From a phage, in sequence record PZ445463.1: a stretch of 43,096 nt of DNA; one strand, written 5' to 3'. Each line of letters starts with the position of its first letter. Within the stretch, counting starts at the first letter, position 1. Both the position numbers and the translations under genes were made by a program. Positions 9,896-16,309 of the stretch are shown piece after piece. Below the pieces are notes generated by a model that was not told where the DNA came from, did no database searches, and saw nothing but the letters and a program-made list of their open reading frames with translations.

Positions 9896-10308
9896 TGGGC
9901 TACTTTGAGGACTTAACAAAAGCGTTTGATGTGCCGCTGGTAGCCTTCGGAACCACCAACGGCATCAAGGTAGCGCTTGAAAACATCGACGCGCCGACGT
10001 CAACAGATACGCCGTATCTGGCAAGTTACATGTTGCTGGCGGATACCGAGCAGGCTGACTTATTCTTCACGGAACAACGCGCCGGTGTCTATCAGATAGA
10101 CATTAACTACGCATCGGTGAAAGGTAGCGCGCCAATCAATAAAATGGCAGACTTACTTAACACGGCGTTTAAAGCAGGTAAGTCATTTTCGCGTAACGAC
10201 ATCTGCGCCGAGGTTCAATCGGTTAGCCTGGGGCCGCTGATTGTAGAAAACGGATGGGCCAAACGGCCATTGTCAATTAACTTTATAGCATTCACCAAGA
10301 GGCTGTGA
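9892..10308 (+). CDS. Tail terminator / tail completion protein (by position)
   Basis: 138 aa ORF immediately upstream of major tail protein gene. Confidence 0.4.
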   Translation: MMGYFEDLTKAFDVPLVAFGTTNGIKVALENIDAPTSTDTPYLASYMLLADTEQADLFFTEQRAGVYQIDINYASVKGSAPINKMADLLNTAFKAGKSFSRNDICAEVQSVSLGPLIVENGWAKRPLSINFIAFTKRL

Positions 10309-11477
10309 ATATGGCTACAACTCCTTTTAAGGGCGCGAATACCGCGCAATTCTATGTGGCGGAAGTGACCCCGGGTGTAACACCGACTAACCCGGTCTGG
10401 TCACCATTACGTAACACGGGCGGTGTTCCTGCCATTACCCGTGACACACTGACCTCCAACGAACTCGACGGCAGCCGTGAAACTACATCCATCCGCACCG
10501 GTAACAAACAGGTTAGCGGTGAATACGCAATTGAGCTTAGCTCTAAAAGCCAGGATGACTGGCTAGCCGGGGCTTTAGGCTCTACGTGGCAGGCTGGCGT
10601 ATCTCTGTCAGGGCTATCGATTACCGTCGCACCGGCTGGCAAGACGTTCACACGTGCCACCGGCAGCTTTATCACTGACGGAGTTGGGGTAGGCGACCTG
10701 ATTGCGTTTACCGATTTAACTGGCGATAATGCAAAACCATTTATTGTTACTGCAGTAACGGCTACGGTTGTTACTGGTGCAGGCATCCAACACACCCTGA
10801 CCACCGAGACAAAAACTAGTAAGGCTAAAACTGGCGACACGCTGGAAACCGGTAATACGTGTAAGACGTTCTCTATCCTTACCTGGTACAAAGGCCAGTG
10901 CGGCGGTACTGACGCGTACACGTTAACCAAAGGCGTGGAAGTTTCTGGTTTTACCATCGAACAGGCTGTTAACGCGATGGTAACTGGCAGCTTCCCATTC
11001 ATCGGTCGCAGTCAGGAGATTCTCACCACGCCGCCGACCGGTTCCAACTTCTCATCTGTTACTTTTGGTGATGAGCCGTTTTCTTCGGTTGACGTTTCCG
11101 TGTTCGATGGCTCCACGCCGTTGCGTTGCGACAGCCTGACCATCACCAACGACAACAGCGCATCCGCGCAGTTCGAACTCGGCAACACTAACGTAGCGTT
11201 TGTAGAACGTAGCCGCGCGGCTAACACCTTCTCCATCTCCGGCAAGCTGTATGACATGGCGATGATTCAGAAGTTTATCAACGAGCAGCAGGTAGAGATT
11301 AACTCTATTCTGGCGGGGGTAAACGGGGCTATGTCTTTCAGTTTGAAACGTGCGGAGCTTACGGCAGTTACCCCAGAGATTGGCGGACCTGAGTCAATCA
11401 CTCAGTCCATTGAAGGCCAGGCTACTGGCAACCAGTACCAGTCGTCTATTGTTATTCAGCGTATCACCTACGCATAA
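10305..11477 (+). CDS. Major tail protein
   Basis: 390 aa T/S/G-rich ORF between connector genes and chaperone/tape-measure genes; followed by strong terminator 11482-11507. Confidence 0.6.
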   Translation: MNMATTPFKGANTAQFYVAEVTPGVTPTNPVWSPLRNTGGVPAITRDTLTSNELDGSRETTSIRTGNKQVSGEYAIELSSKSQDDWLAGALGSTWQAGVSLSGLSITVAPAGKTFTRATGSFITDGVGVGDLIAFTDLTGDNAKPFIVTAVTATVVTGAGIQHTLTTETKTSKAKTGDTLETGNTCKTFSILTWYKGQCGGTDAYTLTKGVEVSGFTIEQAVNAMVTGSFPFIGRSQEILTTPPTGSNFSSVTFGDEPFSSVDVSVFDGSTPLRCDSLTITNDNSASAQFELGNTNVAFVERSRAANTFSISGKLYDMAMIQKFINEQQVEINSILAGVNGAMSFSLKRAELTAVTPEIGGPESITQSIEGQATGNQYQSSIVIQRITYA

Positions 11478-11481
11478 AACT

Positions 11482-11507
11482 AAGGCCCCGAAAGGGGCCT
11501 TTTTTAT
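11482..11507. terminator. Bidirectional rho-independent terminator closing major tail gene and reverse-strand island
   Basis: aaggcccc-gaaa-ggggcctt then tttttatt. Confidence 0.65.
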
Positions 11508-11737
11508 TACTCATCAATGTTACTCCTGTACTCCCGTAACTTTTCCAGACTTTCAATTGCTTCCGCTAAGTCGGTTCCGGTGTCCTTGTGTCCACGTAAA
11601 CCCATGCACAATAGCTTCTTCAATGCGTGCTGTAACGCCGGGTCGCGGATGTCGAAAGCGCGGAGCACATCATAAACGTCTACTGTCATAGTGCTGCCGT
11701 GAGTATTTGTCATTGTGCGGTTGTATTTTGAAGTCAT
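11507..11737 (-). CDS. Hypothetical 76 aa protein (third gene of reverse-strand island)
   Basis: ATGA-coupled to upstream metallophosphoesterase gene; stop lies in terminator T-tract. Confidence 0.55.
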   Translation of the reverse strand: MTSKYNRTMTNTHGSTMTVDVYDVLRAFDIRDPALQHALKKLLCMGLRGHKDTGTDLAEAIESLEKLREYRSNIDE

Positions 11738-12864
11738 CCCAGCATCTCCGGTGAAATAGTTAAACGTGCGACCTCGCCATATTCGGCGCTATAAGTAATT
11801 ACGTTTGCGCTACGCCCAGACATCCATCCGCCGCGCGAGGCGTAGGCGTCTTTCGCCGCTAAGGTGCGGTGTTGCTCAACAATCATGTTACGGCTTTCTA
11901 CAATCTTCTGGTGGTGCAGATGGCCTACGTGGGCGTAGCTGTAAACACTCTCGCCGAACGCTTTACGGAACTTGGCAATCATAACCGGTTCGATAGCGTC
12001 GAATCGTGCTTTATGCCCGTGATGGAAGAACAGCGTCGTTTTGCCGTGTTGCACCATCTTATAAACATCCGGCGACGTATCGACGAATACACGAGGCTCG
12101 TTGTCGTACAGTGTGCTGAACATCTCCGCCAGCCAAATCATTCCGCTTTCGTCGTGGTTCCCTTGCACTATAAGCAAGCGAACATTTTTATGCTTAACCA
12201 GTGCCATATCTACAACACGGCGCACCATACGAATCATGTAGCGAACAAGTTTTTGGTAGCGAGTGTCCGCGTCAAGGGCGTGACCGCTTGCTGGCGTAAC
12301 GGCAACCAGACTATCGAAGTGCGCGAAGTCACCTAACAGGTTAATAACTCCAGTTCCTGCATCCGGTGCTTTCTGAAACGCCGCGTCGAACCAGCGGGAG
12401 AACAGGTCTTCCGCAATCTTCATGTCCCAGTCGTCGCCGCTCTCGTCGGCCCAGGCCAGCATACCGAGATGAAAATCAGATACCGTGTAAAGATTGAGTA
12501 GCTTGCCGTCGCGTTTGGCGCGTGCTGCTTTAACAGGGGCGACTGGTGTAATCTCTGATTTCATTCCTTCGATTACGGCTTTCATCAACTCGACCTGACG
12601 TTCGGCATCGGTGTCTGTCTTAACCCATTGCAACTTAGTGTTGCCGAACTCGTCCACAAGTGACGACGTTCCTTTAATCTTGTAGCCATCTGGCACAAGG
12701 TGACTAACGTCACGTCCGTGGCCTACGCCTTTCTTAGCCAGCTTCGCTTTACGGATACGAATAACGCGGTCTGAGATGCCGTATTTACGGGCGATGTCTA
12801 CATTCTTCATCCCGGCGTTCAATTCTTCCTGTAACTGTTCGTCGGTTATTTTCTTCTGGGCCAT
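11734..12864 (-). CDS. HTH domain fused to Mre11/SbcD-like calcineurin-type metallophosphoesterase
   Basis: N-terminal HTH-like DIARKYGISDRVIRIRKAKL; metallophosphatase motifs in canonical order: SDFHLG (D-x-H), LLGDFAHFD (GD-x-x-D), VQGNHDE (GNHD/E), FHHGH, VGHLHH (GH-x-H). Confidence 0.7.
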   Translation of the reverse strand: MAQKKITDEQLQEELNAGMKNVDIARKYGISDRVIRIRKAKLAKKGVGHGRDVSHLVPDGYKIKGTSSLVDEFGNTKLQWVKTDTDAERQVELMKAVIEGMKSEITPVAPVKAARAKRDGKLLNLYTVSDFHLGMLAWADESGDDWDMKIAEDLFSRWFDAAFQKAPDAGTGVINLLGDFAHFDSLVAVTPASGHALDADTRYQKLVRYMIRMVRRVVDMALVKHKNVRLLIVQGNHDESGMIWLAEMFSTLYDNEPRVFVDTSPDVYKMVQHGKTTLFFHHGHKARFDAIEPVMIAKFRKAFGESVYSYAHVGHLHHQKIVESRNMIVEQHRTLAAKDAYASRGGWMSGRSANVITYSAEYGEVARLTISPEMLG

Positions 12865-12903
12865 GCTTTACTTCCTCGTGTTTAGGATTTGTCCTATACT
12901 AGC

Positions 12904-13095
12904 TCACTTCTCGTTAACATTCGAGTTGCAGGCCCAGATTAAAATAAATACCCACGGCAGCAGAACCCAACCAAGAAACAGATTAGCCATGAATATCGCT
13001 AATTTCGCTTTATGGTTGCGGAAGTATGCAACCAAGAAAGGTGCGAAATAGGCGAGCAGTGCAAACAGAATTAAGGAAACTGGTAAACTTGACAT
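12904..13095 (-). CDS. Small two-helix membrane protein (63 aa)
   Basis: Hydrophobic segments LPVSLILFALLAYFAPFLVAYF and IFMANLFLGWVLLPWVFILIWA; start set at second ATG (13095) with AAGGGG SD; first gene after promoter 13126-13154. Confidence 0.55.
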   Translation of the reverse strand: MSSLPVSLILFALLAYFAPFLVAYFRNHKAKLAIFMANLFLGWVLLPWVFILIWACNSNVNEK

Positions 13096-13125
13096 TTTAA
13101 ACCCCTTCATTGTTGGTGTAAGCGA

Positions 13126-13154
13126 ATAGTACCCTATTATATTGGGGTGTGCAA
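13126..13154 (-). promoter_or_regulatory. sigma70-like promoter TTGCAC-N17-TACTAT (exact copy of 4601-4629)
   Basis: Identical 31-mer; positioned upstream of reverse-strand island genes. Confidence 0.55.
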
Positions 13155-13261
13155 GTAATGTGATAGAATAATTTTGCGCCTAGTGTCGCACACGAAAAGC
13201 GGGTGGTTCCCGTCTGGCGCGTCAATCTTAACCTGTAACCTCTTAACCAAAGGATTAAAGA

Positions 13262-13678
13262 ATGAAACTTTCTGATTTTTATTTCGAAGAGAAAGCGCTG
13301 GTAGGCAAGAAGATGCCGATTCTCCTGCCGAATGGCGAAGACTCCGGTGAGTGGCTTAACGTTGTAAGCCCGGATGCGGATGCCGCCGTTAAAGCGGGGC
13401 GTGCTTTCATTATCGCGTACCGTCGCGGACTGGCGCGTTTCGAAGAACTGGAAAAAGCTGCCAAAGAATCCGGCGACTATACTGAATATAACCTGGCGGT
13501 TAACGAACTGGCCGAAGACCTCAACCGGCAACTTGCAGCAGAAGTAGTAAACGGCTGGAGCTTTGACGAGCCTTTCTCTAAGGAAGCGTTTAGTAAATTG
13601 CTCGACCAGTTCAAGGCATTAGGCACACAAGTAGCGGCGTTCCATAACGCCGAGCGCAAAGCATTACAGGAAAAGTAG
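13262..13678 (+). CDS. Tail assembly chaperone (G-like)
   Basis: 138 aa acidic ORF immediately upstream of tape measure gene with AAAGGA SD; overlapping -1 frame ORF follows. Confidence 0.55.
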   Translation: MKLSDFYFEEKALVGKKMPILLPNGEDSGEWLNVVSPDADAAVKAGRAFIIAYRRGLARFEELEKAAKESGDYTEYNLAVNELAEDLNRQLAAEVVNGWSFDEPFSKEAFSKLLDQFKALGTQVAAFHNAERKALQEK

Positions 13679-14043
13679 ACGCGCTGTACAGGTTCGCCAC
13701 CTACGAGTTCGTCGATAAGCATAAAATCAGAGAGTTTGATTCTATAGCTGACGGACACGAACAGGCGCTTATCGCGATGGGTGTAATCGATAAGAAAAAA
13801 CGTGCAGCGCGACGGGGTGGGCCAGAATGCCCGCCCCTTTTTATATCCACCTTTGAGACGTATTGCGACATTAAGTTTACGCGACACGTGCGCGAGGACG
13901 CTGTAGTATTGTTTGCAAGAGAATCCGTTACGTGGCAAGACCTGAAAGCCTATCTCGATGTTACGCAAAAACAGCTTAGCCTGTTCGAGATAGACATTAT
14001 CATGGGCTTAGAAGCAATCTTTGAAGGTAGAAATCATGGCTGA
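13648..14043 (+). CDS. Putative -1 frameshift extension of tail chaperone (T-like segment of G/GT)
   Basis: Frame open from 13648 to 14043, -1 relative to 13262-13678; A-rich GGAAAAG at 13669-13675 directly before the G stop; runs to tape measure start. Confidence 0.4.
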   Translation, partial: RRAQSITGKVDALYRFATYEFVDKHKIREFDSIADGHEQALIAMGVIDKKKRAARRGGPECPPLFISTFETYCDIKFTRHVREDAVVLFARESVTWQDLKAYLDVTQKQLSLFEIDIIMGLEAIFEGRNHG

Positions 14044-16309
14044 TACCGCTAGCTTGATAGTACGAGTATCATCGACCGGCGTCGATAAAACCACATCACA
14101 ACTGAATGGTCTAACCAAAGCCGCGGGGGCTGCTGCCGCTGCTGTTGTTAGCCTGGAAACCGCTAAGCAGGTGTTCAGTGCGCTGGTGGCCTCTCAGCGC
14201 AACTTCGATAAGCTGAACTCAGGCCTCATCACAATGACCGGGAGTGCTGAGAACGCGGCTAAGGCTTTCAGCGTCCTGCAACAGTTCGCAAAAGAAACCC
14301 CGTATGGTCTTAACCAGGCGGTGGAAGGCTTTACTAAACTTGTAGCCCTCGGCCTGAACCCCAGCAAAGAAGCGTTAATCTCCTACGGCAACACCGCCGC
14401 TGCGATGGGTAAAGACCTTAATCAGATGATTGAGGCTGTGGCGGACGCCAGTACCTTTGAGTTTGAGCGCTTAAAAGAGTTCGGTATCAAGTCCTCCCAA
14501 CAGGCGGATACAGTTTCGTTTACGTTCCGCGGCGTAACGACCACGGTTAAAAAGAACTCCGAAGAGATTCAGAAATACCTTCTGAGCATCGGCAACACCG
14601 ATTTCGCCGGGGCGATGGAGACGCGCTCGAAGACCTTAGACGGTCAGTTGTCTAGCCTCGCCGACTCCTTCGATGGTCTTGTACTTGCGGTGGCGCAGTC
14701 TGGTTTTGGAGACGCGGTAGGTGAACAAGCGGCAACAGCGGAAGATGCTATTACTGCACTCACCGACGCTATCGCGTCTAATGAGATAGCCGCCACGCTC
14801 CAGGATTGGGTGACACTGTTCAATGAGTCGTTCAAGTTTATTTCTGATGCCCTGAATGACCTGGCATTTGACACCGAGGACAAATCCGCTGATATGTCCG
14901 ACTCGCTGGGCACTATACCAGACGCTATCCGTGAGTGGCTGCCTGACATTCAGCAGACGTTCCACGAGGTTATTGCATGGTTCCAGCGCATTGACGATTA
15001 CGCCGTAGCGTTAGGTCAGACCCTTGCCGACGTGTTTGACCCGAGCAAAACGGCAGCGCTCACATTTAAAAACCTGACCGCAGAGGCCGACGCCGCATAC
15101 GCCGCCAGTATAAAACGTGCGGAGGCTGAATCGCAGGCCATTACAGACAGGTCTAAGCAGCGTAAGAAAGAAATTGAGGAACAGCGCAAGCAGTACGACG
15201 AGCGCAAGAAGCAAGAAATTGACTTAGCCAGCCTTGTTAATAAAAAGGGTGGAACTGGTGGCACCGGAAACGCTGACGATAAAGCGACAAAAGCGGCTGC
15301 CAAGAAAGCAGAACAATTGCGGAATCAGGCGCAAGATTACCTCGACACTTTGGCCCGCCAGAACAACGATGAGTTAAAGGCTATCGACGCGCAGGAACAG
15401 CAGAAACTGGCTAAGGCAAAAGAGTTCTACAGCCAGGGCGCGCTGTCGCTGAAAGAATACGAGCAAGCAAAAACGGCTATTGTCCTTGAAGCAGGGCAAA
15501 AACGCCAAGATGAACTGGATAAACGTCAGAAAGAAGCCCTGGAAAAGCAGCAGAAAGGTGACGACTTCATGTCTCAGATTATGGGCCAGAACGCCACTGA
15601 GCTTGAGCTTCTCGATATCCAGGAACAGCAGAAACTGGCTGTCGCAGATAAGTACCGCGAACAGGGTCTGATTAGCGAGAAGCAGTACCAGGCCGCGCTT
15701 AACGCCATCAACGAGCAGTACGCCACGAAACGCGCCGACGCAACGGCAACCGCCTTTGGTAACATGGCCTCAAACATCGGTTCGGCTTTGGGCGAGGCTT
15801 CTGGCGCGTATAAGGCATTCGCTATCGTACAGGCCACTATAGCCACATACACCGCAGCTATTGAGGCGTACAAGTCCACGGCTGCTATCCCTGTAGTTGG
15901 CCCGTTCCTGGCCCCTGTAGCCGCTGCCGCAGCCGTTGGGGCGGGTATGGCGCAGATTTCCGCTATCAGGTCCGCGCGTGAACAGGGCGGTCAGTTATCC
16001 GCGGGGCAGGCTTCTACTATCGCCGAACGCGGTAAACCTGAGGTAATTATGCCGGCGGGGGCGTCGCGAGTACGCACCGCGCAACAAATGAAAGAGATTA
16101 TGGGCCAAAACGGGTCTTCTTCCGGCCCATCTAATGTTACTATCGTAAACAACACGAGTTCGCAAATCGGCAACGTATCTACTGAACAGGATGATGAAGG
16201 GCGTCTGCGCATCATCATCGAGGAGCAGGTAGCTGCCTCTTTGCAGAACAGTAATAGTAAGATTAGCAAGGCCCGCAAGGCCACAAGAAACGCGCCGGGG
16301 TTTAAATAA
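14021..16309 (+). CDS. Tail tape measure protein
   Basis: 762 aa Ala/Gln-rich coiled-coil protein with repeated QEQQKLA segments; position after chaperones. Confidence 0.8.
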   Translation: MKVEIMADTASLIVRVSSTGVDKTTSQLNGLTKAAGAAAAAVVSLETAKQVFSALVASQRNFDKLNSGLITMTGSAENAAKAFSVLQQFAKETPYGLNQAVEGFTKLVALGLNPSKEALISYGNTAAAMGKDLNQMIEAVADASTFEFERLKEFGIKSSQQADTVSFTFRGVTTTVKKNSEEIQKYLLSIGNTDFAGAMETRSKTLDGQLSSLADSFDGLVLAVAQSGFGDAVGEQAATAEDAITALTDAIASNEIAATLQDWVTLFNESFKFISDALNDLAFDTEDKSADMSDSLGTIPDAIREWLPDIQQTFHEVIAWFQRIDDYAVALGQTLADVFDPSKTAALTFKNLTAEADAAYAASIKRAEAESQAITDRSKQRKKEIEEQRKQYDERKKQEIDLASLVNKKGGTGGTGNADDKATKAAAKKAEQLRNQAQDYLDTLARQNNDELKAIDAQEQQKLAKAKEFYSQGALSLKEYEQAKTAIVLEAGQKRQDELDKRQKEALEKQQKGDDFMSQIMGQNATELELLDIQEQQKLAVADKYREQGLISEKQYQAALNAINEQYATKRADATATAFGNMASNIGSALGEASGAYKAFAIVQATIATYTAAIEAYKSTAAIPVVGPFLAPVAAAAAVGAGMAQISAIRSAREQGGQLSAGQASTIAERGKPEVIMPAGASRVRTAQQMKEIMGQNGSSSGPSNVTIVNNTSSQIGNVSTEQDDEGRLRIIIEEQVAASLQNSNSKISKARKATRNAPGFK

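What the first reader, a model, noticed from the sequence alone, without database searches (positions are those of the whole stretch)
13648..13678. Probable programmed -1 frameshift joining the tail chaperone to a downstream extension (G/GT-like)
The 138-aa chaperone-like ORF (13262-13678) ends at TAG 13676-13678. The -1 frame is open from 13648 to 14043, just past the tape measure start codon. An A-rich run GGAAAAG (13669-13675) sits immediately before the stop, where a slip onto AAA would continue translation in the -1 frame. This is the conserved arrangement for tail assembly chaperones, but the heptamer is not a canonical XXXYYYZ site.
Basis: partly seen in the sequence, partly recalled or inferred. 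Interest (0 to 1): 0.4.

Follow-up and report, generated by a model that had tools for sequence, protein, structure and literature searches.

The report
Tail-chaperone frameshift with long-range RNA helix
This is the usual phage trick of making two tail-assembly chaperones from one gene by a backward ribosome slip, already annotated in close relatives, but comparison of about 90 relatives also shows an apparently undescribed, co-evolving RNA helix that starts just after the slip site and probably boosts the slip.

Summary
The window is Escherichia phage SonjaBuckley_Bas74, a Kagunavirus-like member of the Guernseyvirinae. G (13262-13678, Pfam Phage_TAC_4) ends GGAAAAG-TAG. The -1 frame (13648-14043, Phage_TAC_18) runs into the tape-measure start.

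The frameshift is not new. The fusion with junction ...QEK|VDALY... is a 260-aa GenBank/RefSeq protein of phage K1ind2, which is 95% identical in DNA here.

About 90 relatives, down to 44% protein identity, keep G at 138 aa in all but one. They all keep NNA_AAG directly followed by TAA or TAG. In two of them the -1 frame opens only 7 nt before the stop. The conserved core is therefore the tetranucleotide A_AAG next to the stop, not a heptamer.

One thing does look new. The invariant GCG-YUG block 4-6 nt after A_AAG is the 5' arm of a long-range mRNA helix (Bas74: 13680-13689 with 13802-13811, 10 bp, -17.4 kcal/mol). The helix has compensatory changes. Its 3' arm sits at either of two non-homologous positions in two groups of relatives, and RNAalifold finds it as the only consensus structure in each group. 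I infer that it stimulates the -1 frameshift; this is untested.

Verdict: ordinary G/GT frameshift, with a probably novel stimulator.

The parts
13262..13678 (+). Gene G: tail assembly chaperone, 138 aa, 0 frame, stop TAG 13676-13678
   Evidence: ORF list. Pfam Phage_TAC_4 at 26.7 bits against a cutoff of 21.1; phrog_15027 positions 1-138. Annotated as Bas74_0025.
13669..13675 (+). Shift site G_GAA_AAG. The invariant core is A_AAG (13672-13675): tRNA-Lys moves from AAG to AAA.
   Evidence: Sequence. AAAG followed by TAR is invariant in about 90 relatives, while the three preceding bases vary.
13676..13678 (+). 0-frame stop TAG directly after the shift site. In the -1 frame it is read as part of G-UA (Val).
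   Evidence: The stop is always TAA or TAG directly after AAG, and G is 138 aa in all but one relative (L030, 134 aa).
13675..14043 (+). T extension in the -1 frame: 122 codons from GTA 13675 to TGA 14041-14043. It is expressed only as the G-T fusion (260 aa).
   Evidence: Translation. Pfam Phage_TAC_18 at E 1e-18; phrog_15027 positions 139-259. The identical junction is found in GenBank ADA82419.1 of K1ind2. The protein is conserved from the first codons, V-x-A-L.
13680..13689 (+). 5' arm of the long-range mRNA helix (CGCGCUGUAC), 4 nt after the shift site. It contains the CTG (13684) that the GenBank record uses as the start of a separate T gene.
13802..13811 (+). 3' arm of the long-range helix (GUGCAGCGCG). 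It pairs with 13680-13689 (10 bp including one U.G) and closes a 112-nt loop.
   Evidence: The MFE structure contains the helix, z = -2.62. Pair probabilities are 0.59-1.0 in seven sequence contexts and the duplex energy is -17.4 kcal/mol. Covariation.
13814..13847 (+). Terminator-like hairpin GGGGUGGGC-CAGAAU-GCCCGCCCC followed by UUUUUAUAUC, inside T over the GPECP motif and 2 nt after the 3' arm. Whether it belongs to the element is uncertain.
   Evidence: Pattern scan. Present in many lineages but not all. Covariation test inconclusive.
14036..16309 (+). Tape measure protein gene. Its ATG 14036 overlaps the T stop (ATGGCTGA).

Best explanation
Genes G and T of phage Bas74 are expressed as in lambda G/GT.

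**Two products.** Most ribosomes translate G (138 aa) and terminate at TAG 13676. A minority slip back one nucleotide at G_GAA_AAG, where tRNA-Lys re-pairs from AAG to AAA. These ribosomes then read GUA-GAC-GCG-CUG... and make a 260-aa G-T fusion ending at 14043, on top of the tape-measure start. By homology and gene position, G and the G part of GT bind the tape measure protein, and the T part recruits the major tail protein. That functional step is inferred from lambda.

**What defines the site.** The conserved determinant is the tetranucleotide A_AAG followed at once by a stop codon. It is not an XXXYYYZ heptamer.

**The helix.** An mRNA helix forms between 13680-13689 and 13802-13811 and closes a 112-nt loop. 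In other relatives the 3' arm lies about 70 nt further downstream. The helix begins 4-6 nt after the slip site. That places it at the ribosome's mRNA entrance when AAG is in the A site. I infer that it acts as a 3' frameshift stimulator and sets the G:GT ratio.

**Role of the adjacent stop (inferred).** Because 0-frame ribosomes terminate at the foot of the helix, only shifted ribosomes have to unwind it fully. A slowly refolding long-range structure could then stay in place for the next ribosome.

**Shown versus inferred.** Shown: the ORF geometry, the homology, the conservation of the site, and the existence of the helix under selection. Inferred: that slippage occurs and at what rate, and that the helix stimulates it.

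**My estimates.** The frameshift is real: about 0.93. The helix is a selected RNA structure: about 0.88. The helix is a frameshift stimulator: about 0.65.
For: **Geometry and homology.**
- establish the ORF geometry.
- both halves hit TAC families above the curated cutoffs, and one PHROG profile spans both halves.
- the fusion with the same K|V junction is a deposited protein of K1ind2.
- joined CDSs exist in relatives.

**The shift site.**
- 491 phage records hold the fusion in two frames.
- the last Lys codon is AAG in all 22 representatives counted and in every relative listed. Other Lys columns mix AAA and AAG.
- The penultimate codon always ends in A although it encodes E, A, V, K or G (GAA, GCA, GTA, AAA, GGA).
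- In L052 and L053 the -1 frame opens only 7 nt before the stop.
- the T protein is conserved from V-x-A-L onward, far upstream of the first ATG (13777).
- A_AAG is the classic E. coli -1 tetranucleotide, and AAA is normally about 3 times commoner than AAG (PMC5009743).

**The helix.**
- GCG-YTG after the stop is nucleotide-invariant, while synonymous sites elsewhere are saturated.
- every one of 78 distinct sequences scanned has a helix of 7-16 bp whose 5' arm starts 4-6 nt after AAG.
- 88.9% of cells are paired, against 17-56% when the partner is slid. Pair 18/141 is CG in 21 sequences and UA in 14, with none unpaired.
- 89.5% paired, against 23-50% when slid, with four pairs showing double changes.
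- RNAalifold recovers this helix as the only consensus structure in both groups.
- in 74 of 75 distinct sequences the best duplex partner within +40 to +400 nt is one of the two sites.
- pair probabilities are 0.59-1.0.
- G.U pairs occur in the sense-strand orientation, where the antisense strand would have C.A mismatches.
- The 4-6 nt spacer is close to the 5-9 nt usual for 3' stimulators.
Against: - There is no experimental evidence for Bas74 or any Guernseyvirinae phage: no G-T protein detection and no reporter assay was found.
- P-site re-pairing is poor in Bas74 (GAA to GGA) and absent in relatives with C_GCA_AAG, so efficiency may be low.
- Lambda G/GT is generally thought to work without a 3' structure (my recollection, not checked here), so a stimulator is not strictly needed.
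- No local stem-loop or pseudoknot is conserved in the first 90 nt.
- No conserved upstream Shine-Dalgarno-like stimulator is evident in the alignment.
- A 112-185 nt loop makes the helix slow to form.
- In Bas74 the spacer is 4 nt, at the short end of the usual range.
- Many of the sequences are closely related, so the number of independent compensatory events is nearer 8-10 than the raw cell counts suggest.
- The helix could serve another purpose; see the rival explanations.
Confidence: 0.82

Rival explanations
1. The frameshift is real, but the long-range helix is not a frameshift stimulator. It serves another role in a stretch of mRNA that few ribosomes cross. Candidates are burying the CUG/UUG at 13684 to prevent spurious initiation or reinitiation, protecting the mRNA from nucleases or Rho, or working with the adjacent terminator-like hairpin (13814-13837) as a transcription attenuator that lowers read-through into the tape-measure gene.
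For: The 5' arm contains the YUG that gene callers pick as a start. A GC-rich hairpin followed by a U-tract sits 2 nt after the 3' arm and recurs in many lineages. Lambda G/GT is thought to need no 3' structure (my recollection). Most ribosomes stop at 13678, so the T region is ribosome-poor.
Against: The 5' arm keeps a fixed distance of 4-6 nt from the slip site in all lineages, while the 3' arm has moved by about 70 nt. That is what a shift-site-anchored stimulator predicts. A stability or attenuation element would not need to be anchored there. The terminator-like hairpin is absent or weak in several lineages that keep the helix.
Confidence: 0.25
2. T is a separate protein, not a fusion. 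It would be initiated at CTG 13684, as in the Bas74 GenBank record (Bas74_0026), or made by termination-reinitiation after the G stop.
For: Many records annotate a CDS starting at this CTG or TTG, 6 nt after the stop. The codon is always CTG or TTG. AGGAAAAG upstream looks like a weak Shine-Dalgarno sequence.
Against: - The C/T alternation at that codon co-varies with G/A in the 3' arm (CG in 21 sequences, UA in 14, none unpaired). Base pairing therefore explains its conservation.
- The codon is buried in a helix with pair probability of about 1.
- The GGA motif is lost in lineages with CGCAAAG, AGCAAAG or AAAAAAG.
- CTG is a very poor initiator in E. coli (general knowledge).
- This model does not explain why AAG, and a wobble A in the preceding codon, are invariant across five different amino acids.
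- In lambda, T functions only as part of GT (PMC5009743).
- A start at ATG 13777 is excluded, because about 34 conserved codons lie upstream of it.
Confidence: 0.05
3. The frame change happens at the RNA level. RNA polymerase slips on the A-run and makes an mRNA with one extra A, which standard translation then reads into T.
For: The site is an A-run (AAAA in Bas74; AAAAAA in L073 and L077).
Against: Most lineages have only 3-4 consecutive A residues (GGCAAAG, CGCAAAG). That is well below the roughly 7-9 needed for productive transcriptional slippage (general knowledge; PMC5009743 treats such cases). The invariant G after the A-run and the adjacent stop fit tRNA-Lys slippage from AAG to AAA instead.
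Confidence: 0.02
4. The -1 ORF is a fortuitous open frame or a decayed gene and is not expressed at all.
For: None beyond the absence of direct protein data.
Against: Strong protein-level conservation, with 61 invariant columns in eight sequences that are 44-60% identical to Bas74 across both halves. Pfam and PHROG family hits. The arrangement is kept in 491 records.
Confidence: 0.01

Closest known systems
Phage lambda G/GT tail assembly chaperones (Levin, Hendrix & Casjens 1993; Xu, Hendrix & Duda 2004, 2013, 2014; as summarised in PMC5009743)
   Same: Two overlapping ORFs lie just upstream of the tape-measure gene. The second ORF is in the -1 frame and has no start of its own. The slip is on ...A_AAG by tRNA-Lys. 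The lambda heptamer G_GGA_AAG occurs verbatim in the close relative L022 (IMG/VR contig of 44,851 bp, the length of Raoultella phage RP180). The short product is made in excess and the long one is rare.
   Different: The proteins belong to other TAC families (Phage_TAC_4 and Phage_TAC_18). The heptamer is non-canonical in most members. The 0-frame stop abuts the slip site in every member. A covarying long-range helix starts 4-6 nt downstream, whereas lambda is thought to need no 3' stimulator. The major tail gene is separated from G by a cassette of four minus-strand genes.
E. coli dnaX and IS911/IS3-type -1 frameshift cassettes
   Same: An A_AAG-based slip site exploits the single E. coli tRNA-Lys. 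A 3' base-paired structure lies a few nucleotides downstream. Some bacterial dnaX genes also have the 0-frame stop directly after the shift site.
   Different: There is no conserved 5' Shine-Dalgarno-like stimulator. The 3' element is not a compact stem-loop or three-way junction. It is a helix whose arms are 112-185 nt apart.
A_AAG tetranucleotide sites: IS1222 G_CGA_AAG and Bacillus cdd A_CGA_AAG (PMC5009743)
   Same: Slippage relies on A_AAG alone, with little or no P-site re-pairing. Efficiency is modulated by the two bases 5' of it (NNA_AAG).
   Different: Here the site is used for a phage structural-assembly ratio, is fused to a stop codon, and is coupled to a long-range helix.
Long-range frameshift stimulators: phage T7 gene 10 (an element in the terminator more than 200 nt downstream), IS3411-type ALIL pseudoknots (second element 44-104 nt downstream), barley yellow dwarf virus (4 kb) (PMC5009743)
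   Same: A sequence 100-200 nt or more 3' of the shift site takes part in the stimulatory structure. In Bas74 a terminator-like hairpin also lies next to the distal element, which recalls T7 gene 10.
   Different: In those systems a local stem-loop next to the shift site pairs through a loop with the distal element. Here the distal element itself forms the helix adjacent to the shift site, and no local stem-loop is conserved. The distal partner has also been relocated between the two groups of relatives.

Membership tests
G/GT-type tail assembly chaperone pair with programmed -1 frameshift | Two overlapping ORFs located between the major tail protein gene and the tape measure gene, ending at or overlapping the tape-measure start | tested here: met
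   G is 13262-13678 and T runs to 14043, overlapping the tape-measure ATG at 14036. One caveat: four minus-strand genes (window 11507-13250) lie between the 390-aa tail tube candidate (10305-11477) and G.
G/GT-type tail assembly chaperone pair with programmed -1 frameshift | The second ORF is in the -1 frame relative to the first and lacks a credible initiation site of its own | tested here: met
   The -1 frame is open from 13648. The first ATG is at 13777, downstream of about 34 conserved codons. The CTG at 13684 is buried in a helix and has no conserved Shine-Dalgarno sequence.
G/GT-type tail assembly chaperone pair with programmed -1 frameshift | A slippery sequence inside the overlap of the two frames | tested here: met
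   A_AAG at 13672-13675 lies inside the 31-nt overlap. The heptamer G_GAA_AAG is not XXXYYYZ. Relatives carry G_GGA_AAG and A_AAA_AAG as well as non-canonical forms.
G/GT-type tail assembly chaperone pair with programmed -1 frameshift | Arrangement and slip site conserved in diverged relatives | tested here: met
   About 90 loci and 491 GenBank records, down to about 44% protein identity.
G/GT-type tail assembly chaperone pair with programmed -1 frameshift | Sequence membership in curated tail-assembly-chaperone families | tested here: met
   Phage_TAC_4 at 26.7 bits (cutoff 21.1) for G. Phage_TAC_18 at 67.7 bits (cutoff 27) for T. phrog_15027 covers both halves. There is no solved-structure relative by sequence.
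G/GT-type tail assembly chaperone pair with programmed -1 frameshift | Both G and G-T proteins are made at a fixed ratio, are needed for tail assembly and are absent from virions | not testable with these tools
   Needs western blot or mass spectrometry of infected cells, plus genetics. No such data were found for Guernseyvirinae.
Bacterial -1 PRF cassette with a 3' structural stimulator (dnaX / IS911 type) | A base-paired mRNA structure beginning about 5-9 nt 3' of the shift site | tested here: met
   The helix starts 4 nt after AAG in Bas74 and 4-6 nt after it in relatives (5 nt in most). It is supported by thermodynamic prediction and by covariation. Its arms are 112-185 nt apart, which is atypical.
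Bacterial -1 PRF cassette with a 3' structural stimulator (dnaX / IS911 type) | A Shine-Dalgarno-like stimulator 10-14 nt 5' of the shift site | tested here: not met
   No conserved GGAGG-like motif is visible upstream in the 23-lineage alignment (by inspection).
Bacterial -1 PRF cassette with a 3' structural stimulator (dnaX / IS911 type) | The structure measurably raises frameshift efficiency | not testable with these tools
   Requires reporter assays with arm mutants and compensatory mutants.
ALIL-type long-range pseudoknot stimulators (IS3411, BYDV) | A local stem-loop next to the shift site whose loop pairs with a distal loop | tested here: not met
   No conserved local stem-loop exists in the first 90 nt. 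The distal segment pairs directly with the sequence next to the shift site.
Intrinsic transcription terminator (for the hairpin at 13814-13847) | A GC-rich stem-loop followed by a U-tract, conserved with covariation | tested here: inconclusive
   The pattern is present in Bas74: 9-bp stem, 8 of them GC, followed by T5. It is present in many lineages but not all.

The most novel reading that the evidence does not exclude
The covarying helix between the sequence 4-6 nt after A_AAG and a segment 112-185 nt downstream is an undescribed long-range stimulator of -1 frameshifting in a dsDNA phage tail-chaperone gene. Its 5' arm is fixed at the shift site. Its 3' partner has been re-invented at a second, non-homologous position during Guernseyvirinae evolution. 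The abutting stop codon lets non-shifted ribosomes leave without fully unwinding the helix. The neighbouring terminator-like hairpin may be part of the same control module that sets the ratios of G, GT and tape measure protein.
Probability: 0.55. Interest if true: 0.6.

Novelty: new variant of a known kind. Interest (0 to 1): 0.45.

Why it matters
**Annotation.** The frameshift itself matters mainly for annotation. Bas74 and many Guernseyvirinae records list T as a separate CTG- or TTG-start gene or as a hypothetical protein. One genome announcement states that there is no canonical slippery sequence (PMC6776780). The comparative rule found here settles this for the sampled relatives: NNA_AAG directly followed by TAA or TAG, then GCG-YUG. 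It can be used to correct hundreds of records.

**Mechanism.** The helix is the more interesting part.

- G/GT frameshifting is the textbook example of a slip site that seems to work alone, so a selected 3' structure in one large phage lineage would be worth knowing.
- Long-range stimulators are rare in bacteria. The T7 gene 10 long-range effect is still unexplained.
- The relocation of the 3' arm is a natural experiment in how such elements evolve inside coding sequence.
- The system runs in E. coli K-12 with a BASEL-collection phage, so it can be tested directly with standard reporters and with synonymous phage mutants.

Tried and rejected
- **Local 3' stem-loop or pseudoknot.** Folds of 13676-13775 and 13640-13740 gave z = -1.55 and +1.22. 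RNAalifold on the first 90 nt of 23 lineages gave about 0 kcal/mol. Rejected. The partner lies further downstream.
- **Upstream Shine-Dalgarno-like stimulator.** No conserved motif is visible in the alignment.
- **Known RNA family.** No Rfam match up to E = 1 in 13200-14100.
- **Independent start of T at ATG 13777.** Rejected, because the protein is conserved upstream of it.
- **CTG 13684 as a start.** Rejected as the main route; see the rival explanations.
- **Read-through of TAG in the 0 frame.** It meets a stop about 22 codons later (read), so it cannot give T.
- **+1 frame.** It closes at 13718.
- **Solved-structure relatives by sequence.** None significant. Structure prediction was not run: only window sequences may be submitted, and a single-sequence model would be poor.
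- **Literature.** Seven searches for the frameshift or helix in Kagunavirus, Jerseyvirus, Guernseyvirinae, SETP3 and K1ind phages. Only the Shashou remark and general reviews turned up.
- **More distant relatives.** Vibrio phage pVco-14 and Serratia phage Opt-155 have other candidate slip sites and not the A_AAG-stop arrangement, so the arrangement was not found outside Guernseyvirinae-like phages.
- **Terminator-like hairpin as a universally conserved element.** Not supported.
Full report
**1.

The region is 100% identical to Escherichia phage SonjaBuckley_Bas74 (PQ850627.1, record coordinate = window + 538). Bas74 is a BASEL-collection siphovirus. It is close to Kagunavirus K1ind2, K1G and RP180, at 94-97% DNA identity over this stretch.

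- ATG 13262 opens a 138-aa ORF ending ...CAG GAA AAG TAG, with TAG at 13676-13678.
- GGAAAAG is at 13669-13675.
- The -1 frame follows a TAA at 13645-13647 and is open from 13648 to TGA 14041-14043.
- That TGA overlaps the tape-measure ATG at 14036.

**2. What the two ORFs are**

G hits Pfam Phage_TAC_4 (26.7 bits, cutoff 21.1). The -1 extension hits Phage_TAC_18 (67.7 bits, cutoff 27). PHROG 15027 is a 259-position 'tail assembly chaperone' profile. G aligns to its positions 1-138 and the extension to 139-259, so the family was built from fusion proteins.

RefSeq K1ind2 carries a two-piece joined CDS over the same span. Serratia phage Smarc3 has a joined 'pre-tape measure frameshift protein'. 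I built the K1ind2 fusion by reading G to its last Lys and then continuing from the G of AAG in the -1 frame. That 260-aa sequence is exactly ADA82419.1 / YP_009597354.1. The frameshift, with the junction ...ALQEK|VDALY..., is therefore already on record for phages about 95% identical to Bas74.

The Bas74 record itself lists T as a separate CDS that starts at CTG 13684. Many other records call it hypothetical. [quoted passage not shown] Annotation of this feature is inconsistent across records.

**3. Comparative test of the slip site**

tblastn of the fusion finds 511 phage records. In 491 of them one place covers at least 80% of the query, as two pieces in two frames spanning 776-779 nt. I read 10 GenBank loci and 80 IMG/VR loci and analysed them by script.
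- G is 138 aa in all but one.
- The four bases before the stop are always A_AAG, and the stop is always TAA or TAG.
- The heptamers are GGAAAAG (most), GGGAAAG (L022, apparently RP180: the lambda site), GGCAAAG, GGTAAAG, CGCAAAG, AGCAAAG and AAAAAAG (the dnaX site).
- In 22 representative lineages the last codon is AAG in all 22. Other Lys columns mix AAA and AAG.
- The penultimate codon is GAA, GCA, GTA or AAA, and GGA in L022. That is five amino acids, always with wobble A.
- In L052 and L053 the -1 frame opens only 7 nt before the stop, so the shift must happen within C_GCA_AAG.

The T protein is conserved from its first codons (V-x-A-L-Y...), with many invariant residues well before the first in-frame ATG at 13777.

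This fits -1 slippage of the single E. coli tRNA-Lys from AAG to AAA. It is the well-studied A_AAG tetranucleotide mechanism, whose efficiency depends on the two bases 5' of it, and AAG is otherwise the minority Lys codon (PMC5009743). P-site re-pairing is clearly not conserved.

**4. An unexpected conserved block, and what it is**

In the 23-lineage alignment, AAAG-TA is invariant. So are GCG and the TG of YTG, two bases after the stop. Yet invariant Leu, Ala and Arg positions elsewhere use all their synonymous codons. Protein coding cannot explain that.

A local downstream structure does not explain it either. Folds of the first 100 nt are unremarkable, and RNAalifold on the first 90 nt finds nothing.

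I then searched for reverse complements of this block. A perfect complement of 6-10 nt appears further down the T frame in nearly every lineage. It lies about 130 nt after the stop in one group: Bas74, K1ind2, RP180, Hafnia TS33, SCS44, and Jerseyvirus Ent3 and SETP7. I call this group A. It lies about 200 nt after the stop in the other group: Bas71, Bas76, Smarc3, fmb-p1, SETP3 and phiEap-2. I call this group B.

A helix scan that allows G.U pairs found a helix of 7-16 bp in each of 78 distinct sequences. The 5' arm always starts 4-6 nt after AAG.

In Bas74 the arms are CGCGCUGUAC (13680-13689) and GUGCAGCGCG (13802-13811). That is 10 bp with one U.G pair and a duplex energy of -17.4 kcal/mol.
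- The MFE fold of 13676-13820 contains the helix, at -45.6 kcal/mol and z = -2.62.
- Its pair probabilities are 0.59-1.0 in seven sequence contexts of up to 1 kb.

**5. Tests of the helix**

With the structure stated in advance, group A (35 sequences) has 88.9% of cells paired, against 17-56% when the 3' partner is slid by 1-3 columns.
- Pair 18/141 is C-G in 21 sequences and U-A in 14, with none unpaired.
- Pairs 21/138, 22/137 and 23/136 each show two or three pair types.
- None of 500 shuffles reaches the observed covariation score.

Group B (38 sequences) has 89.5% paired, against 23-50% when slid. Four pairs show double changes (for example UA to CG, AU to UA, UA to GC, GC to AU), and none of 500 shuffles reaches the score.

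RNAalifold, run without any hint, predicts this helix and nothing else. That holds across the 159 columns of group A and the 234 columns of group B.

I also scanned duplex energies of the 19 nt after the stop against 22-nt windows starting +40 to +378 downstream. Site A or site B is the best partner in 74 of 75 distinct sequences. The median is -20.4 kcal/mol, against -13.8 for the best other position. The two sites are largely mutually exclusive. The exception is the CGCAAAG lineage, which has both.

In group A the 3' arm lies in a poorly conserved linker. The residues read RAAR, RTTQ, ETTQ or DATQ, but the nucleotides xCA-RCG-C are fixed. G.U pairs occur in the sense orientation, where the antisense strand would have C.A mismatches, so the structure is in the mRNA. 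Many sequences are close relatives, so I count roughly 8-10 independent compensatory events plus one relocation of the 3' arm. The raw cell counts overstate the number of independent events.

**6. Mechanism**

Shown: the geometry, the homology, the selected slip site, and the selected helix.

Inferred: with GAA in the P site and AAG in the A site, the first helix pair sits about 11-12 nt from the first P-site base. That is at the mRNA entrance, where 3' stimulators act. Spacers of 5-9 nt are usual (PMC5009743). Resistance to unwinding during that translocation would favour the one-base backward slip of tRNA-Lys onto AAA, after which GUA (Val) is read.

Ribosomes that do not slip meet the stop at once and leave. 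Only the shifted minority then unwinds the whole helix. This may be why the stop always abuts the site, and why a slowly forming long-range structure can work. It is an idea, not a result.

By analogy with lambda, G and GT bind the tape measure protein and the T domain recruits the tail tube protein. Neither ends up in virions.

**7. Rivals**

T as a separate protein starting at CTG or TTG 13684 is unlikely.
- The C/T alternation of that codon is explained by pairing with G/A in the 3' arm.
- The codon is buried in the helix.
- The GGA motif upstream is lost in several lineages.
- The model does not explain the A_AAG invariance.

Transcriptional slippage is unlikely because most lineages have only 3-4 consecutive A residues.

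The serious rival concerns only the helix. It could block spurious initiation, protect a ribosome-poor stretch of mRNA, or act with the adjacent terminator-like hairpin. The fixed distance of the 5' arm from the slip site, while the 3' arm moved, argues for a role tied to the slip site. I give the stimulator reading about 0.65.

**8. Comparison with what is known**

As biology, this is a member of the lambda G/GT class. All sequence-level criteria are met and the protein-level ones are untestable here.

As mechanism, it resembles A_AAG tetranucleotide sites (IS1222, Bacillus cdd) and the dnaX and IS911 cassettes, which combine A_AAG with a 3' structure. It lacks their 5' Shine-Dalgarno stimulator.

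The long-range aspect recalls three cases. T7 gene 10 involves an element in a terminator more than 200 nt downstream, and its mechanism is unexplained. IS3411-type ALIL pseudoknots have a second element 44-104 nt away. BYDV has one 4 kb away. The Bas74 case does not meet the ALIL definition, because there is no conserved local stem-loop and the distal segment itself forms the helix next to the site.

No Rfam family matches. Seven full-text searches found no description of this helix. The library lacks most subscription papers, so prior description cannot be excluded.

**9. Verdict**

The finding as written is correct and ordinary: a G/GT frameshift already annotated in near-identical phages.

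Two things are added here. The first is a clear rule for the site in this lineage: NNA_AAG directly followed by TAA or TAG. It resolves the 'non-canonical heptamer' worry and the inconsistent annotation. The second is a well-supported, apparently undescribed long-range mRNA helix anchored 4-6 nt after the slip site, which is probably a frameshift stimulator.

Interest is 0.45, and I class it as a new variant of a known kind.

Noticed in passing
window 13814-13847 (+): A terminator-like hairpin lies inside the T coding frame: GGGGTGGGC-CAGAAT-GCCCGCCCC (9 bp, 8 of them GC) followed by TTTTTATATC. It sits 2 nt after the 3' arm of the long-range helix and over the conserved GPECP motif. Many relatives keep a 7-11 bp hairpin plus a U-rich tract here with different stem sequences. 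One of them, L010, keeps it although its protein lacks GPECP. Other lineages have none. It could be an intragenic attenuator ahead of the tape-measure gene, or part of the frameshift fold. It recalls the unexplained involvement of a terminator in T7 gene 10 frameshifting.
   Followed up: partly
window 13684-14043 (record 14222-14581, Bas74_0026): The GenBank record annotates T as an independent 'tail assembly chaperone' CDS starting at CTG 13684. The same start, 6 nt after the stop (CTG or TTG), is used in five of the nine other relatives' records examined (TS33, SCS44, Ent3, SETP7, Bas71). This is most likely a gene-caller artefact. The codon is inside the helix arm, and the true product should be a joined G-T CDS.
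   Followed up: yes
window 11507-13250 (-) between 10305-11477 (+) and 13262 (+): The tail gene block is interrupted by four minus-strand genes. They are a 76-aa hypothetical, a 376-aa 'DNA repair exonuclease', a 68-aa 'superinfection immunity protein' and a 37-aa hypothetical. They lie between the 390-aa tail protein gene (annotated 'minor tail protein', by position the tail tube candidate) and G. G therefore starts a new plus-strand transcription unit. The simple sigma-70 scan found promoter-like sites only on the minus strand in 12850-14100, and none upstream of G.
   Followed up: partly
L022 1006-1014; L073 and L077 1006-1014; L033 and L050-L053 (IMG/VR loci): Natural variants of the slip site exist within the family. 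L022 (IMG/VR contig of 44,851 bp, the length of Raoultella phage RP180) has the canonical lambda heptamer G_GGA_AAG, one base different from Bas74. L073 and L077 have the dnaX heptamer A_AAA_AAG. The CGCAAAG lineage has no P-site re-pairing at all and carries both alternative 3' arms (-19.8 and -21.0 kcal/mol). Together these make a ready-made allelic series for measuring efficiency.
   Followed up: partly
L093 1500-1560 (Vibrio phage pVco-14); L094 1590-1635 (Serratia phage Opt-155): The most distant G homologues found (28-30% identity) also have a -1 ORF running to the tape-measure gene, but with other candidate slip sites. pVco-14 has T_TTT_TTC, ending 3 nt before the stop, with only a 16-nt frame overlap. 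Opt-155 has C_CGA_AAG, which is IS1222-like. The A_AAG-stop plus helix arrangement was not seen there.
   Followed up: partly
window 14021-14043: The mechanical ORF list starts the tape measure ORF at TTG 14021. The record, and a GAAGG Shine-Dalgarno-like motif, favour ATG 14036. That ATG overlaps the T stop as ATGGCTGA, a typical coupling arrangement.
   Followed up: no
window 13683-13690: An 8-nt palindrome, CTGTACAG, lies inside the 5' arm. It is specific to the Kagunavirus K1-type sequences and too short to form a hairpin. It is probably incidental.
   Followed up: no
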